Positions 3,205 to 5,158 of a stretch of 5,179 nt of DNA are shown here, piece after piece. The stretch lies in IMG/VR virus record IMGVR_UViG_3300018486_000086. One strand, given 5' to 3'. The position numbers and the translations under genes are program-made. Source of the DNA: a virus (Duplodnaviria > Heunggongvirae > Uroviricota > Caudoviricetes). Positions within the stretch are counted from its first letter, which is position 1; every line of letters begins with the position of its first letter. Below the pieces are notes generated by a model. The model ran no database searches, was not told where the DNA came from, and saw only the letters and a list, made by a program, of their open reading frames with translations.

Positions 3205-3268
3205 TATAACTCACCTTATCGAGCTATGGCGACATGCTGAATTCGAGTAAATTAAAGGAACAATACTT

Positions 3269-4030
3269 ATGCAGGAACTAACTGAAATGCCGATCACCTA
3301 TCCATACCCGAGAGAATCTTTTCCTGACTTTTTGAGGGAGTGTGGGTTCACCAATTTTTCCCACGAACAGCGTGAGACTTATGACTGCTATCGTTTAACG
3401 AATGGCGTAATTGTTAACCTTTACACCACCCGGACCATTCAGTTTCAAGGTAACCCTCAAGAACGTCCCAATGTTGAAACTGCAATAATGTCCCATTTAG
3501 GAACGCCCCCCACGGCAACACCACTAGCCGTAGAACAGCCATCTGAGCTTCCCAAAAAGATATTCATTGTTCACGGCCATGACCATACTGCAAAGGAACA
3601 ACTTGAGCTAATCCTTCATAAACTTGGATTACCAGACCATTTCATTTTGCAGAATACGGGAGGGACTGGACTCACCATTATTGAAGAGCTTGAACGTGAA
3701 ATTGGGCAAGGACAAACTGCTACCCGTTTCGGGATTGTTCTTTTGACACCTGATGATATGGGATACTCAAAGCGCGCCGGTGAAGCAGAAATCCAACCCC
3801 GCGCAAGACAGAACGTTGTACTCGAGATGGGTATGCTTCTTTCGTCCTTAGGGCGCAGCAATGTAGCAATCCTTCAGAAACAGCACCTAGAACAGCCTTC
3901 TGATGCTAACGGGATTTTGTATCTGAATTTCAACGACCATGTACGTGAAACAGTTCCTCGTCTAGTGCAACGGTTACAAAATTCTGGTTTCGAATTTACA
4001 CAAGCTCAAATAGCTAACGCTTCCTCGTAA
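3269..4030 (+). CDS. TIR-like domain protein (COG4271 / PF10137-type predicted nucleotide-binding protein) with an uncharacterised N-terminal domain of about 80 aa
   Basis: 253-aa ORF with AAGGA at 3255-3259, 9 nt before ATG 3269. The C-terminal region KIFIVHGHDHTAKEQLELILHKLGL...FGIVLLTPDDMGYSKRAGE...RARQNVVLEMGMLLSSLGRSNVAILQKQHLEQPSDANGILYLNF matches the remembered hallmark blocks of the TIR-like PF10137 family (FIVHGHD, LLTPDD, RARQNV-x-ExG, PSD). GC is visibly lower than in the flanking polymerase gene. Confidence 0.75.
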   Translation: MQELTEMPITYPYPRESFPDFLRECGFTNFSHEQRETYDCYRLTNGVIVNLYTTRTIQFQGNPQERPNVETAIMSHLGTPPTATPLAVEQPSELPKKIFIVHGHDHTAKEQLELILHKLGLPDHFILQNTGGTGLTIIEELEREIGQGQTATRFGIVLLTPDDMGYSKRAGEAEIQPRARQNVVLEMGMLLSSLGRSNVAILQKQHLEQPSDANGILYLNFNDHVRETVPRLVQRLQNSGFEFTQAQIANASS

Positions 4031-4054
4031 TTACCCCCTTATTGTTGATTACAA

Positions 4055-4076
4055 CCCTGCATTGCGGGGTTTTTTA
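4055..4076 (+). terminator. Candidate rho-independent terminator after the TIR-like gene
   Basis: CCCTGC (4055-4060), loop ATT, GCGGGG (4064-4069) gives a 6-bp stem with one G-U pair, immediately followed by a T-run at 4070-4075. It lies 25 nt after the TAA stop at 4028-4030. The downstream AAAAACCC (4086-4093) could alternatively pair with GGGTTTTT. Confidence 0.5.
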
Positions 4077-4094
4077 TTTGGGAATAAAAACCCT

Positions 4095-4229
4095 ATGTCA
4101 TTTAAATACCGGGACAGTCCGCTTTATTACCGGACTGCGCGGGAGGCTTTGCGCCTTGAACAGTCCAGCGGGTACGACCGGGCGATGCAGGTCTGGGCCA
4201 AAGCGAACGTCGGTTTGATTTTTGTCTGA
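4095..4229 (+). CDS. Possible unannotated small ORF (44 aa), hypothetical
   Basis: ATG 4095 to TGA 4227-4229 translates to MSFKYRDSPLYYRTAREALRLEQSSGYDRAMQVWAKANVGLIFV. It fills an otherwise empty 189-nt gap in a tightly packed operon. It has no clear Shine-Dalgarno and is below the ORF-track length cutoff. Confidence 0.3.
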   Translation: MSFKYRDSPLYYRTAREALRLEQSSGYDRAMQVWAKANVGLIFV

Positions 4230-4265
4230 TGCAGAACATGCGCGAAAAGCGTAAGGAGGTGGACG

Positions 4266-4460
4266 ATGTCTAATATCGATAATAAAGGTTGGGGGTTCCC
4301 CGCCCTGTCGAAAAAAGCACATTTCTTTAATTCGGGGGAAGCCATATCACTATGCGGAAAATGGATGTTCACAGGTATCAGGATTGACGAATGGCATGAC
4401 CATCCTGAGAACTGCGCTATCTGCATGAAGAAACGCAAAAAGCAGGAAGGCGAAAGCTAA
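4266..4460 (+). CDS. Small Cys/His-containing hypothetical protein (possible zinc-binding), translationally coupled to VRR-NUC
   Basis: 64-aa ORF with a strong AAGGAGG at 4253-4259, 6 nt before ATG 4266. It contains C-x13-H-x-H-x4-C-x2-C followed by a basic KKRKK tail. Its TAA stop overlaps the next ATG as TAATG at 4458-4462. Confidence 0.6.
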   Translation: MSNIDNKGWGFPALSKKAHFFNSGEAISLCGKWMFTGIRIDEWHDHPENCAICMKKRKKQEGES

Positions 4461-4744
4461 TGGCCTATGAACGTGAAAACCTAATCGAAAAGCACCTCGT
4501 CGCTGAAGTAAAAAAGGCTGGCGGGGTTGCTTTTAAGTTCGTATCTCCCGGTCTCCGCTCGGTACCAGATCGCATTGTTCTGCTACCCGGCGGTCGCATC
4601 GTCTTTGTCGAATGCAAAGCACCAGGCAAACCACCACGACCTGATCAGTTGCGCGAGCATGAACGTCTGCGAAAACTGGGCTTTACCGTGGTAGTACTGG
4701 ATAGTAAGGAGCTTTCATGTATATTAGGCAAAAAATTACAATAG
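4460..4744 (+). CDS. VRR-NUC domain nuclease (PD-(D/E)XK superfamily)
   Basis: 94-aa ORF, GLRSVPDRIVLLPGGRIVFVECKAPGKPPRPDQLREHERLRKLGF. The PD...E-x-K catalytic arrangement and the size are typical of phage VRR-NUC proteins. The start codon overlaps the upstream stop. Confidence 0.8.
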   Translation: MAYERENLIEKHLVAEVKKAGGVAFKFVSPGLRSVPDRIVLLPGGRIVFVECKAPGKPPRPDQLREHERLRKLGFTVVVLDSKELSCILGKKLQ

Positions 4745-4759
4745 GAGTCTGTGTAAGCT

Positions 4760-5158
4760 ATGGCTAAGCAACAAACGAAAGAAATAAACCAAGATGATGT
4801 AAAAGACAACAAAAATATGCCACCTCATATATGCGGCATTATTATGCCAATTGCGGACATAGAAGGTTATCCCACTGGACATTGGAGAAATGTTCATGAC
4901 ATTATTTGTGAAGCATCAAATGATGCCGGATTCAAGGCAAATTTGGTAAGTTCAGATGATGATGTTGCAGTAATACAAAAACGAATTGTTCAAAATCTTT
5001 ATGAAAACCCCATAGTTGTTTGCGATATAAGTGCTCGAAACGCTAATGTAATGTTTGAATTAGGAATGCGTCTCGCATTTGACAAACCGACCGTAATTAT
5101 TAAGGACGAGCGCACTCCTTATAGCTTTGACATTTCATCAATTGAACATTTAGAGTAC
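4760..5158 (+). CDS. 5' part of a nucleoside 2-deoxyribosyltransferase-like / TIR-like Rossmannoid protein, 3'-truncated by the adapter
   Basis: Open frame from ATG 4760 to the adapter junction, with AGGAG at 4743-4747. It translates to MAKQQTKEINQDDVKDNKNMPPHICGIIMPIADIEGYPTGHWRNVHDIICEASNDAGFKANLVSSDDDVAVIQKRIVQNLYENPIVVCDISARNANVMFELGMRLAFDKPTVIIKDERTPYSFDISSIEHLEY. The block D-x4-N-x-N-V-x-F-E-x-G-x5-KP-x-V-I matches the core motif around the conserved Glu in the deoxyribosyltransferase / LOG / TIR-like clade. It is visibly the AT-richest stretch of the window. Confidence 0.5.

What the first reader, a model, noticed from the sequence alone, without database searches (positions are those of the whole stretch)
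3205..5158. Candidate accessory cassette: TIR-like gene, small ORFs, VRR-NUC and deoxyribosyltransferase-like gene as a possible defence or counter-defence module
Downstream of the polymerase the operon alternates replication-type genes (Cys/His small protein plus VRR-NUC, GC-normal and translationally coupled) with compositionally foreign genes encoding nucleotide-processing folds (the TIR-like and deoxyribosyltransferase-like genes). This mosaic pattern is what moron insertion into a conserved phage module would look like. Having two related Rossmannoid nucleotide-acting domains flanking a nuclease is not an arrangement I recognise as a described system. It may be an undescribed phage-encoded immune-evasion or exclusion unit, or simply two independent morons.
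Basis: inference. Interest (0 to 1): 0.75.

Follow-up and report, generated by a model that had tools for sequence, protein, structure and literature searches.

The report
Two independent prophage TIR-type cargo genes
The region is part of an E. coli prophage replication operon in which two unrelated, swappable cargo genes (a known candidate TIR defence gene and an uncharacterised TIR/deoxyribosyltransferase-fold gene) sit in two separate insertion hotspots, so it is not one new defence system.

Summary
Window 3205-5158 carries a CAP12/PycTIR-type TIR gene (3269-4030), a decayed ANR gene, a 64-aa gene, a VRR-NUC nuclease and the first 133 codons of a low-GC gene ("gene X", starts 4760). Gene X is cut off by an Illumina adapter.

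- **Hotspots.** The backbone (DUF2815 SSB, PolA, VRR-NUC, SNF2 helicase) occurs in 159 of 5426 complete E. coli genomes. It has three hypervariable slots. TIR always sits in the PolA|VRR-NUC slot and gene X in the VRR-NUC|SNF2 slot.
- **Slot cargo elsewhere.** Relatives carry SIR2, BstA, methyltransferases, Nmad5, PDC-S25 and PDC-S42 in these slots.
- **Independence.** Each gene occurs without the other. Gene X relatives in 78 of 80 other species lie outside this module with no conserved neighbour, and only one has a TIR relative within 10 kb.
- **Co-occurrence.** All 24 gene X genomes in E. coli also carry TIR, but this is essentially one near-identical prophage haplotype.

The TIR gene is a full-length match to PADLOC candidate PDC-S35. 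Gene X belongs to a large, very conserved, unnamed single-gene family and is the more interesting lead.

The parts
277..825 (+). Backbone: DUF2815/Enc34-type (Gp2.5-like) ssDNA-binding protein. Forms the left flank of hotspot slot A.
   Evidence: Pfam PF10991 7.6e-44; phrog_112 6e-57. 98-100% conserved in E. coli relatives.
826..1107 (-). Hotspot slot A (DUF2815|PolA). Here it holds a 71-aa minus-strand gene at 870-1085, 38% GC.
   Evidence: phrog_3261 3.9e-5. Otherwise 99.5%-identical prophages carry a 209-aa minus-strand gene here instead. Other relatives carry SIR2, Nmad5 or Ant. Slot length ranges from 86 to 2566 bp in 79 modules.
1108..3204 (+). Backbone: family A DNA polymerase with a 3'-5' exonuclease region.
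   Evidence: Pfam DNA_pol_A 2.4e-14; phrog_17 5e-127.
3205..4095 (+). TIR cassette, the insertion in hotspot slot B. It contains a 64-nt leader with a ribosome-binding site, the TIR gene and a terminator. The cassette is absent as a clean indel in relatives, where the PolA stop abuts the ANR start.
   Evidence: Three-way DNA alignment of window, L006 (no TIR) and L008 (72% allele). Blastn breakpoints.
3269..4030 (+). TIR gene (253 aa). N-terminal alpha-beta4-alpha domain (about residues 15-77, TBP-like, similar to the RnlA and RNase HIII N-terminal domains), a linker, then a CAP12/PycTIR-type TIR domain (97-222) with an invariant Glu186 in the motif NVVLEMG.
   Evidence: Pfam PF10137 2.9e-31; PADLOC PDC-S35 PDLC05003 1.3e-108 over positions 3-245 of 245; phrog_16442 1e-107. 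Aligns to Cap12 TIR around the Glu. AF2 model plus Foldseek: TIR-STING 9lmq 2e-5. N-terminal domain: RnlA_toxin in 4 of 34 homologues (best 8.5e-4), DUF3378 in 2 of 34.
4053..4081 (+). Intrinsic-terminator-like hairpin plus T-run directly after the TIR gene.
   Evidence: Scan. The diverged TIR allele in L008 keeps a hairpin plus T-run at the same place with a different stem sequence.
4096..4229 (+). ANR-family small regulator, a pseudogene here. Semi-conserved backbone.
   Evidence: NCBIfam ANR_neg_reg 6e-7. PGAP flags it 'frameshifted'. 40-nt deletion relative to intact L006/L008 copies.
4266..4460 (+). 64-aa Cys/His-containing protein whose stop overlaps the VRR-NUC start. Variable: relatives have DUF4406 or nothing at this position.
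   Evidence: phrog_2358 2.6e-25. Locus tables.
4460..4744 (+). Backbone: VRR-NUC/PD-(D/E)XK nuclease (94 aa). Its last roughly 12 codons (from 4708) belong to the swappable slot C cassette.
   Evidence: phrog_93 3.4e-31; Pfam VRR_NUC 18.5 bits, below cut-off. Homology to relatives breaks at L001 11090 = window 4707.
4760..5158 (+). Gene X, first 133 of 305 codons (full gene at L001:11143-12060, WP_001551510). Cargo of hotspot slot C. N-terminal TIR/NDT-fold domain with invariant Glu100 in the motif NVMFELG, followed by long helices and a variable C-terminal alpha/beta domain.

Best explanation
The window is part of the replication operon of a temperate E. coli phage. The prophage is integrated next to yfhL/shoB and is 99.5% identical to Escherichia phage vB_EcoM-606R2.

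The conserved backbone (DUF2800 nuclease, DUF2815 SSB, PolA, VRR-NUC, SNF2 helicase) contains three recombination hotspots in which cargo is exchanged between conserved flanks. The TIR gene is cargo of the PolA|VRR-NUC slot, and gene X is cargo of the VRR-NUC|SNF2 slot. They are two independent single-gene modules, not parts of one system. This much is shown.

The rest is inferred:
- Each protein is a stand-alone effector built like other single-protein TIR NADases: a TIR-type N-glycosidase domain with a catalytic Glu, joined to a variable sensor domain.
- In the TIR protein the sensor is an N-terminal TBP-like domain of the kind that binds nucleic acid in RNase HIII and RnlA.
- In gene X it is a helical stalk plus a variable C-terminal domain.
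- The most likely role is prophage-borne anti-phage defence by infection-triggered NAD+ (or nucleotide) hydrolysis, i.e. abortive infection or superinfection exclusion.
For: - **Backbone and cargo frequency.** The backbone is in 159 of 5426 E. coli genomes. This TIR allele is in 37 and gene X in 24.
- **Alternative cargo.** Locus tables show different cargo at the same three positions: SIR2, Nmad5, Ant, DUF4406, YfbU, DUF6338, Dcm+BstA.
- **Unbiased PolA-anchored IMG/VR sample.** Of 79 complete modules, 58 have neither gene, 17 have TIR only, 4 (sequence-identical over the module) have both and 0 have gene X only. Slot lengths are 86-2566, 219-1826 and 12-2056 bp, so empty sites exist.
- **Clean indels.** Boundaries of both cassettes are sharp.
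- **Gene X without TIR in the same slot.** Seen in Klebsiella aerogenes, Enterobacter and Providencia prophages.
- **Gene X outside the module.** Of 80 species-representative gene X loci, 78 lack the module, one has a TIR relative within 10 kb, and no neighbour family recurs in more than 6 loci.
- **Slot cargo matches defence models.** PADLOC models PDC-S25, ThsA-like SIR2, BstA, PDC-S42, MTases, SspD-like, PD-Lambda-5_B; Pfam SIR2_2, Nmad5, Mrr_cat, HNH.
- **TIR protein identity.** Full-length PDC-S35 match, Glu186 invariant. Outside phages the family sits as a single gene in integrase/transposase/Mrr/PemK islands.
- **Gene X is dispensable.** It carries a +4 frameshift in a (CAAT) repeat in the deposited genome of phage vB_EcoM-606R2 and is split by IS1 in strain JNEC-KY203.
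- **Published precedent.** Single-protein TIR-like NADase with stalk and auxiliary sensor domain: Swarozyc/DUF4062 (bioRxiv 10.64898/2026.05.01.722283).
Against: - No enzymatic or phenotypic data exist for either family. I found no paper on PDC-S35 or on these accessions.
- Both genes are co-oriented with the replication operon, and no convincing promoter of their own was found. Promoter-like sites are not above shuffled expectation. This fits expression during lytic growth better than in the lysogen, whereas many other slot cargos are on the opposite strand.
- All 24 E. coli genomes with gene X also carry TIR.
- A diverged Providencia alcalifaciens prophage repeats the TIR + gene X arrangement at 65-67% protein identity.
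- One unrelated viral contig (L135) has relatives of both genes 2.6 kb apart. Some functional or selective link is therefore not excluded.
- Both structure models are of moderate confidence (mean pLDDT 73).
Confidence: 0.62

Rival explanations
1. Counter-defence or host-takeover genes used by the phage during its own lytic cycle. Possible roles are degrading or sequestering NAD-derived or nucleotide immune signals, reshaping nucleotide pools, or supporting DNA modification. They would be expressed with the replication genes rather than in the lysogen.
For: - Both genes are on the operon strand, close behind backbone genes (64-nt and 15-nt gaps), with no clear own promoter.
- All 65 TIR and all 18 gene X copies found in modules are on the + strand.
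- The same slots also carry DNA-modification cargo: Dcm, Dam, Nmad5, PAPS-reductase/SspD-like, DUF4406.
- Gene X's fold matches MilB (CMP hydrolase) and phage NDT/MilB-annotated proteins as well as it matches TIR.
Against: - Both families are widespread as solitary genes in bacterial chromosomes and islands, far from any phage replication genes.
- The TIR family was picked up by PADLOC as a defence candidate.
- A catalytically intact NADase-type TIR would harm the phage's own replication unless tightly gated.
- To my knowledge no described anti-defence protein has this architecture. No anti-defence library was available to test this.
Confidence: 0.2
2. A cooperative two-gene unit. The TIR protein and gene X would work together, for example one making or sensing a nucleotide signal and the other executing. 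The nuclease might or might not take part.
For: - 24 of 24 E. coli genomes with gene X also have TIR.
- The same pair occurs in the same order in Providencia alcalifaciens prophages at 65-67% identity.
- L135 carries relatives of both genes 2.6 kb apart outside the module.
- The two proteins share a local motif, NV..E.GM...HLE.PSD.
Against: - The E. coli co-occurrence is essentially one haplotype: 22 of the 24 listed genomes carry TIR at 100% identity, and about 23 genomes match at 99% or more across the region. The two slots are only 730 bp apart.
- TIR pairs with at least 10 different slot-C states, and gene X with at least 3 different slot-B states.
- 17 of 21 TIR-bearing modules in the PolA-anchored sample lack gene X. 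After collapsing the four contigs that are sequence-identical over the module, the association is not significant (my calculation).
- Only 1 of 80 gene X loci in other species has a TIR relative nearby. Of 80 TIR-bearing viral loci, only L135 and the four identical to the window carry gene X.
- The two genes are never adjacent; backbone genes separate them.
- Both look like effectors, each with a catalytic Glu. Neither looks like a sensor or cyclase.
Confidence: 0.07
3. Ordinary core accessory factors of this type of phage replication, with no role in conflict.
For: Position inside the replication operon. Nucleotide-acting folds.
Against: - Absent from 58 of 79 related modules and from 122 of 159 E. 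coli backbones.
- Foreign base composition.
- Gene X is inactivated in the deposited phage genome vB_EcoM-606R2 and by IS1 in one strain.
- Both families occur mostly outside such modules.
Confidence: 0.03

Closest known systems
PADLOC phage-defence candidate PDC-S35 (single-gene; CAP12/PycTIR-type TIR, Pfam PF10137)
   Same: The window's TIR protein matches model PDLC05003 end to end (E=1.3e-108) and four sibling models. It has the same length, the same TIR domain and the invariant Glu. Homologues occur as single genes in mobile islands.
   Different: PDC-S35 is only a computational candidate, and I found no experimental paper. Here the gene sits in a fixed slot of a prophage replication operon rather than in a chromosomal defence island.
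CBASS Cap12 (TIR-STING) and Pycsar PycTIR effectors
   Same: Same TIR subfamily. Aligns around the catalytic Glu (NVVLEMG against NVVFEFG). Best PDB sequence and structure matches are 7un8/9lmq Cap12 and 8jsj PycTIR.
   Different: There is no cyclase gene in the prophage region. There is no STING or cyclic-nucleotide-binding domain; the partner domain is an N-terminal TBP-like fold. NCBIfam Cap12 scores 35 bits against a cut-off of 450. It is therefore not a CBASS or Pycsar component.
Swarozyc (DUF4062 TIR-like NADase; bioRxiv 10.64898/2026.05.01.722283)
   Same: This is an analogy for gene X and, more loosely, for the TIR gene. It is a single protein with an N-terminal TIR-like domain carrying a catalytic Glu (E97 there, Glu100 in gene X), helical stalks and a C-terminal auxiliary domain. 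It has a patchy, HGT-like distribution, sometimes next to defence genes.
   Different: Gene X does not match Pfam DUF4062 (not among hits at E up to 1). Its N-terminal motif differs (CGIIMPI...). Its trigger and activity are unknown.
Nucleoside 2-deoxyribosyltransferase / MilB (CMP hydrolase) superfamily
   Different: No significant sequence match to Pfam PF05014 (13-14 bits against a cut-off of 28.8). Sequence signals are slightly better for CAP12-type TIR. Gene X has about 170 extra C-terminal residues that are absent from NDTs.
Defence hotspots of temperate phages and satellites (P2/P4 hotspots; prophage morons such as BstA, PMC8585504)
   Same: Conserved flanks with interchangeable cargo that includes known defence genes: BstA, SIR2, MTases, PADLOC candidates.
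   Different: Here the hotspots lie inside a PolA-type replication operon, and part of the cargo, including both genes of the finding, is co-oriented with that operon. I did not find this particular module described.

Membership tests
CAP12/PycTIR TIR domain (Pfam PF10137): TIR gene | Significant match to the family model above the gathering score | tested here: met
   108.4 bits against a cut-off of 24.7, E=2.9e-31, residues 97-222 covering model positions 1-118 of 119. All 34 aligned homologues match.
CAP12/PycTIR TIR domain (Pfam PF10137): TIR gene | Catalytic glutamate of TIR NADases conserved | tested here: met
   Glu186 is invariant in 34 homologues. It aligns with the Glu of NVVFEFG in Cap12 chains 7un8 and 9lmq. 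That this Glu is catalytic rests on established knowledge of TIR NADases.
PADLOC PDC-S35 (candidate single-gene defence) | Full-length match to the PDC-S35 HMMs | tested here: met
   PDLC05003 E=1.3e-108, protein residues 10-253 on model positions 3-245 of 245. PDLC05004-05007 score 1e-43 to 1e-56.
PADLOC PDC-S35 (candidate single-gene defence) | Protects cells against phage | not testable with these tools
   No experimental report found.
CBASS (Cap12 effector) / Pycsar (PycTIR effector) | Adjacent CD-NTase or pyrimidine cyclase, and a cyclic-nucleotide sensor domain fused to the TIR | tested here: not met
   No cyclase among the 23 annotated genes of the prophage arm or in PADLOC scans of the window proteins. 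NCBIfam Cap12 equivalogs score 30-35 bits against a cut-off of 450. The N-terminal domain is alpha-beta4-alpha, not STING.
Thoeris (ThsA + ThsB TIR) | A ThsB-type TIR next to a ThsA effector | tested here: not met
   No ThsA or ThsB model hit for any window protein. SIR2/ThsA-like cargo occurs only in slot A of other relatives, independently of TIR.
Nucleoside 2-deoxyribosyltransferase (Pfam PF05014): gene X | Sequence match above the gathering score | tested here: not met
   13-14 bits against a cut-off of 28.8, E=0.05-0.1.
Nucleoside 2-deoxyribosyltransferase / TIR structural superfamily: gene X | Flavodoxin-like fold with Glu after the central strand. Structural neighbours are NDT, MilB or TIR rather than generic Rossmannoids. 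| tested here: inconclusive
Swarozyc / DUF4062 (PF13271): gene X | Match to the DUF4062 model | tested here: not met
   DUF4062 is absent from Pfam hits at E up to 1 for the full 305-aa protein. HMMER filters drop most hits above E of about 0.1. No precomputed Pfam domain on any of 120 homologues.
Two-gene defence system (TIR + gene X) | Conserved adjacency and co-occurrence across diverse genomes | tested here: not met
   Never adjacent. Each occurs without the other in the same slot. 1 of 80 gene X species loci has a TIR relative within 10 kb. Of 80 TIR-bearing viral loci, only the four identical to the window and L135 carry gene X.
Prophage cargo (defence) hotspot | Conserved flanking genes, many alternative cargos including known defence genes, and empty sites | tested here: met
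   79 modules with slot lengths from 12/86/219 bp (empty) up to about 2-2.5 kb. About 140 cargo clusters. PADLOC and Pfam hits to BstA, SIR2/ThsA-like, MTases, PDC-S25/S42, Mrr and others.
VRR-NUC nuclease (Pfam PF08774): gene at 4460-4744 | Match above the gathering score | tested here: inconclusive
   18.5 bits against a cut-off of 23.8, but phrog_93 endonuclease scores 3.4e-31 and PGAP names it VRR-NUC/PDDEXK.

The most novel reading that the evidence does not exclude
Gene X represents an unrecognised, very large and unusually conserved single-gene family. There are 4466 clusters at 90% identity, 590 clusters at 50% identity with E<=1e-30, and hits in at least 335 species across many phyla. 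Residues 24-200 are 55-65% identical between phyla. The reading is that these proteins are TIR-like N-glycosidase immune effectors: a catalytic N-terminal domain, a helical stalk and a rapidly varying C-terminal sensor domain. They would work like Swarozyc as a stand-alone abortive-infection NADase carried by prophages and islands. The family is absent from Pfam and PADLOC.
Probability: 0.35. Interest if true: 0.6.

Novelty: new member of a known kind. Interest (0 to 1): 0.38.

Why it matters
The "new system" reading does not hold. This is the familiar pattern of prophage hotspots carrying interchangeable conflict genes, and one of the two genes already belongs to a catalogued candidate family.

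Two things are still useful:
- **Three cargo slots.** This PolA-type replication module is common in Enterobacterales prophages and has three well-delimited cargo slots. Their contents (about 140 protein clusters in my sample, many unannotated) are a compact place to look for new defence or anti-defence genes.
- **Gene X as a test candidate.** It belongs to a very large, strongly conserved, unnamed family with a TIR/NDT fold, a candidate catalytic Glu and a variable C-terminus. It is a cheap and well-defined candidate for a phage-challenge and NADase assay.

The co-orientation of both genes with the replication operon also raises a testable question: are such cargo genes expressed in lysogens (defence) or only during lytic growth (exclusion or counter-defence)?

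Tried and rejected
- **Literature.** Searches for PDC-S35, the RefSeq protein accessions, the PHROG ids, the phage names and the module found nothing specific.
- **Sequence search of PDB with gene X.** Neither the single sequence nor the profile gave anything meaningful.
- **Conserved partner for gene X.** Clustering the +/-5 neighbours in 80 species loci found none; the best recurring family was in 6 loci and was an ABC ATPase. Pfam and PADLOC tallies of immediate neighbours were heterogeneous, mixing integrases, transposases and some defence genes with housekeeping genes. I make no claim of defence-island enrichment.
- **Own promoters.** Promoter-like sites numbered 5 against 3.4 +/- 1.7 in shuffles, so they are not informative.
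- **N-terminal domain of the TIR protein.** Only weak RnlA_toxin and DUF3378 hits in a minority of homologues and weak RNase H3 Foldseek hits. The TBP-like assignment is provisional.
- **AFDB fold search.** Not available.
- **Naive Fisher test.** On the PolA-anchored sample it gives p of about 0.004. I rejected it because the four double-positive contigs are sequence-identical over the module.
- **CBASS, Pycsar and Thoeris membership.** Considered and rejected (see membership tests).

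
Full report
**What the window is**

Bases 31-5158 are 100% identical to IMG/VR contig UViG_3300018479_000258 and 99.5% identical to Escherichia phage vB_EcoM-606R2 and to prophages in about 23 complete E. coli chromosomes. Bases 1-30 and 5159-5179 are Illumina TruSeq adapter. The last gene is therefore truncated by an assembly artefact, not by biology.

In E. coli 15.TR.026_OXA (locus L001) the prophage arm reads as follows: primase/helicase (DUF5906), HTH regulators, DUF2800 nuclease, DUF2815 SSB, a minus-strand gene, PolA, a TIR protein, ANR (frameshifted), a 64-aa protein, VRR-NUC, a 305-aa hypothetical protein ("gene X"), SNF2 helicase, AlpA-like HTH, integrase, then chromosomal yfhL/shoB.

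**Check of the observation**

- TIR gene, 3269-4030: Pfam CAP12-PCTIR_TIR, E=2.9e-31.
- ANR remnant, 4096-4229: NCBIfam 6e-7, with a 40-nt deletion relative to intact copies.
- 64-aa gene, 4266-4460: phrog_2358. Its stop overlaps the VRR-NUC start.
- VRR-NUC, 4460-4744: phrog_93 3.4e-31. The Pfam score is just below cut-off.
- Gene X: starts at 4760.

GC content is 53.7% for PolA, 45.3% for TIR, 44.6% for the 64-aa gene, 48.8% for VRR-NUC and 34-36% for gene X. Gene X is clearly foreign in composition; TIR is only mildly so.

**Comparative genomics: three hotspots**

The backbone occurs in 159 of 5426 complete E. coli genomes, always chromosomal. Annotated loci show three places where the content changes while the flanks stay 95-100% identical.
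- Slot A (DUF2815|PolA): the 71-aa minus-strand gene (this window), a 209-aa minus-strand gene, Nmad5, SIR2, or Ant.
- Slot B (PolA|VRR-NUC): TIR + ANR + 64-aa gene; ANR + DUF4406; a hypothetical + YfbU; or a 72%-identical TIR allele + ANR.
- Slot C (VRR-NUC|SNF2): gene X; DUF6338; Dcm + BstA; or various hypotheticals.

In an unbiased PolA-anchored sample of IMG/VR, 79 complete modules gave slot lengths of 86-2566, 219-1826 and 12-2056 bp, so empty sites exist. Of these modules, 58 have neither gene, 17 have TIR only, 4 have both (sequence-identical over the module) and none has gene X only.

About 140 cargo protein clusters were found in the slots. Among 100 representatives scanned:
- PADLOC matched PDC-S25, ThsA-like SIR2, BstA, PDC-S42, several methyltransferases, SspD-like and PD-Lambda-5_B.
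- Pfam matched Nmad5, SIR2_2, HNH_3, PAPS_reduct, DUF4406, DUF6338, YfbU, Mrr_cat and DUF4145.

These are conflict-gene hotspots of the kind known from P2/P4 and other prophages.

**Cassette boundaries**

The TIR cassette is a clean indel. In TIR-less relatives the PolA stop abuts the ANR start. In TIR-bearing relatives about 890 nt are inserted, comprising a leader with a ribosome-binding site, the ORF, and a hairpin plus T-run. The diverged allele keeps the hairpin with a different stem sequence.

The gene X cassette starts at window 4708, inside the last 12 codons of VRR-NUC, and ends at the SNF2 start.

**Are the two genes linked?**

In E. coli this TIR allele is in 37 genomes and gene X in 24, and all 24 also carry TIR. 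However, 22 of the 24 listed genomes carry TIR at 100% identity, about 23 genomes match at 99% or more across the region, and the two slots are only 730 bp apart.

Evidence of independence:
- TIR without gene X: 13 E. coli genomes, 17 of 21 TIR-bearing IMG/VR modules, and 35 of 39 TIR-bearing modules in the TIR-anchored scan.
- Gene X without TIR in the same slot: Klebsiella aerogenes, Enterobacter quasiroggenkampii, Providencia alcalifaciens DSM 30120 and two IMG/VR contigs.
- The TIR + gene X haplotype combines with four different slot-A cargos.

Outside the module:
- 78 of 80 species-representative gene X loci lack PolA, VRR-NUC and SNF2. Only one has a TIR relative (41% identity, 9 kb away).
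- 41 of 80 viral TIR loci are outside the module. Of these, only L135 has a gene X relative (39% identity, 2.6 kb away).

Points for a link:
- The Providencia alcalifaciens prophages L009-L011 repeat PolA-TIR-small ORF-VRR-NUC-gene X-SNF2 at 65-67% identity.
- L135, as above.

A naive Fisher test gives p of about 0.004, but with the four contigs that are sequence-identical over the module collapsed to one it is not significant (my calculation). I conclude that these are two independent cargo genes, and that a weak association cannot be excluded.

**The TIR protein**

It matches PADLOC candidate PDC-S35 end to end (E=1.3e-108) and phrog_16442. The family has 2703 database hits, and its TIR domain is very conserved, with Glu186 invariant in NVVLEMG. 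The closest solved relatives are Cap12 (TIR-STING) and PycTIR, aligned across that Glu.

The N-terminal 80 residues are modelled with pLDDT of about 90 as alpha-beta4-alpha. A minority of homologues weakly match RnlA_toxin and DUF3378 (the RNase HIII N-terminal domain), which are TBP-like nucleic-acid-binding folds.

No cyclase or STING domain is present, so the protein is not a CBASS or Pycsar component. Outside phages, homologues are single genes next to integrases, IS elements, an Mrr nuclease, PemK, or on an ICE-like element.

**Gene X**

The full protein is 305 aa. It has no Pfam or NCBIfam family. Sequence signals are weak:
- CAP12-type TIR: Pfam E=0.011; PADLOC CBASS TIR effector E=1e-6.
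- NDT: Pfam E=0.1.
- Profile-profile comparison with the PDC-S35 family aligns NVMFELGM...HLEYPSD with NVVLEMGM...HLEQPSD (E=1.5e-4, probability 51%).

The family is large and uniform:
- 4466 hits in the first search.
- 590, 1762 and 4210 clusters at 50% identity with E<=1e-30, 1e-10 and 1e-3 for the N-terminal domain. The best 150 are almost all 250-330 aa (range 160-400) with the domain at or near the N-terminus.
- 335 matching stretches in the species-representative genome scan, and 157 matching stretches in the viral-contig scan.
- Residues 24-200 stay 55-65% identical across phyla, while the C-terminus varies freely.

No neighbour is conserved. Neighbours mix mobile-element, defence and housekeeping genes.

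The gene is dispensable. It carries a +4 slip in a (CAAT)3 tract in the deposited genome of phage vB_EcoM-606R2 and an IS1 insertion in strain JNEC-KY203.

**Mechanism: what is shown and what is inferred**

Shown:
- Accessory status, hotspot location and independence of the two genes.
- TIR-family membership of the first gene.
- TIR/NDT-type fold and conserved Glu of the second.

Inferred:
- Each protein is a self-contained sensor-effector whose TIR-type domain hydrolyses NAD+ (or a nucleotide N-glycosidic bond) when its variable domain detects a phage component, giving abortive infection or exclusion.
- The precedent is Swarozyc, a single DUF4062 TIR-like NADase with stalk and auxiliary domain that is activated by phage portal (10.64898/2026.05.01.722283). 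Gene X is not a DUF4062 member by Pfam.

The main uncertainty is timing and direction. Both genes are co-oriented with the replication operon and have no convincing promoter of their own. A lytic-cycle role (exclusion, counter-defence or nucleotide-pool manipulation) is therefore a real rival.

**Verdict**

The region is a new member of a known kind, namely prophage conflict-gene hotspots with TIR-type effectors. Gene X is a moderately interesting uncharacterised family worth an experiment.

Noticed in passing
window 1-30 and 5159-5179: Illumina TruSeq adapter sequence at both ends: ACTCTTTCCCTACACGACGCTCTTCCGATCT at the start and AGATCGGAAGAGCGTCGTGTA at the end. It produces spurious 32-nt hits to unrelated phage records and artificially truncates gene X.
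   Followed up: yes
window 4096-4229: The ANR-family small regulator is a pseudogene here, with a 40-nt deletion relative to intact copies in L006 and L008. PGAP also flags it as frameshifted in every relative examined that carries this TIR allele, whereas the 72%-identical TIR allele in L008 sits next to an intact ANR.
   Followed up: partly
window 826-1107 (gene at 870-1085, minus strand): Slot A differs even between otherwise 99.5%-identical prophages. The window and two IMG/VR contigs carry a 71-aa minus-strand gene (phrog_3261). ST38-type chromosomes carry a 209-aa, 29% GC minus-strand gene. Strain Rb-50 carries SIR2, and strain KY203 carries Ant plus hypotheticals.
   Followed up: partly
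L002:8143-9064 (phage vB_EcoM-606R2) against L001:11143-12060: Gene X in the deposited phage genome has a 4-nt insertion that expands a (CAAT)3 tract to (CAAT)4. This shifts the frame and splits the gene into two annotated ORFs. It could be a slippage-prone switch or a sequencing error. The tract lies just beyond the real end of the window.
   Followed up: partly
L335 (E. coli JNEC-KY203) 6605-8080: Gene X is interrupted by an IS1 element in this strain, while the TIR gene stays intact.
   Followed up: no
window 4053-4081; L008 about 5680-5720: The terminator-like hairpin after the TIR gene is kept in the 72%-identical allele with a different stem sequence (compensatory changes). This suggests the cassette carries a functional terminator inside the replication operon.
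   Followed up: partly
L135:544-6021 (IMG/VR 3300003856_000014): A viral contig without the PolA module carries a gene X relative (295 aa, 39% identity), three unannotated ORFs, a PDC-S35-like TIR (241 aa, 49% identity) and a YaaC-like gene, within 5.5 kb. This is a third, independent co-occurrence of the two families.
   Followed up: partly
L009-L011 (Providencia alcalifaciens prophages): Same gene order as the window (PolA, TIR, small ORF, VRR-NUC, gene X, SNF2) at 65-78% protein identity, but the C-terminal third of gene X is unrelated. Nmad5 lies further upstream, and in L011 the DUF2800 gene is missing.
   Followed up: partly
L252/L253 8001-8759; L255/L256: Outside phages, PDC-S35-type TIR genes are often preceded by a small 70-86-aa ORF 25-70 nt upstream (Vibrio cholerae ICE-like element; an integrase-Mrr-PemK island). 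No such ORF exists in the window. A possible partner or leader was not examined.
   Followed up: no
slots A-C of L095-L133 and L257-L333: About 140 distinct cargo protein clusters occupy the three slots of this module family, and most have no Pfam or PADLOC match. Recurrent unannotated examples: a 223-aa + strand protein in slot A (19 loci), a 232-aa minus-strand protein in slot C (15 loci) and a 381-aa + strand protein in slot C (11 loci).
   Followed up: no
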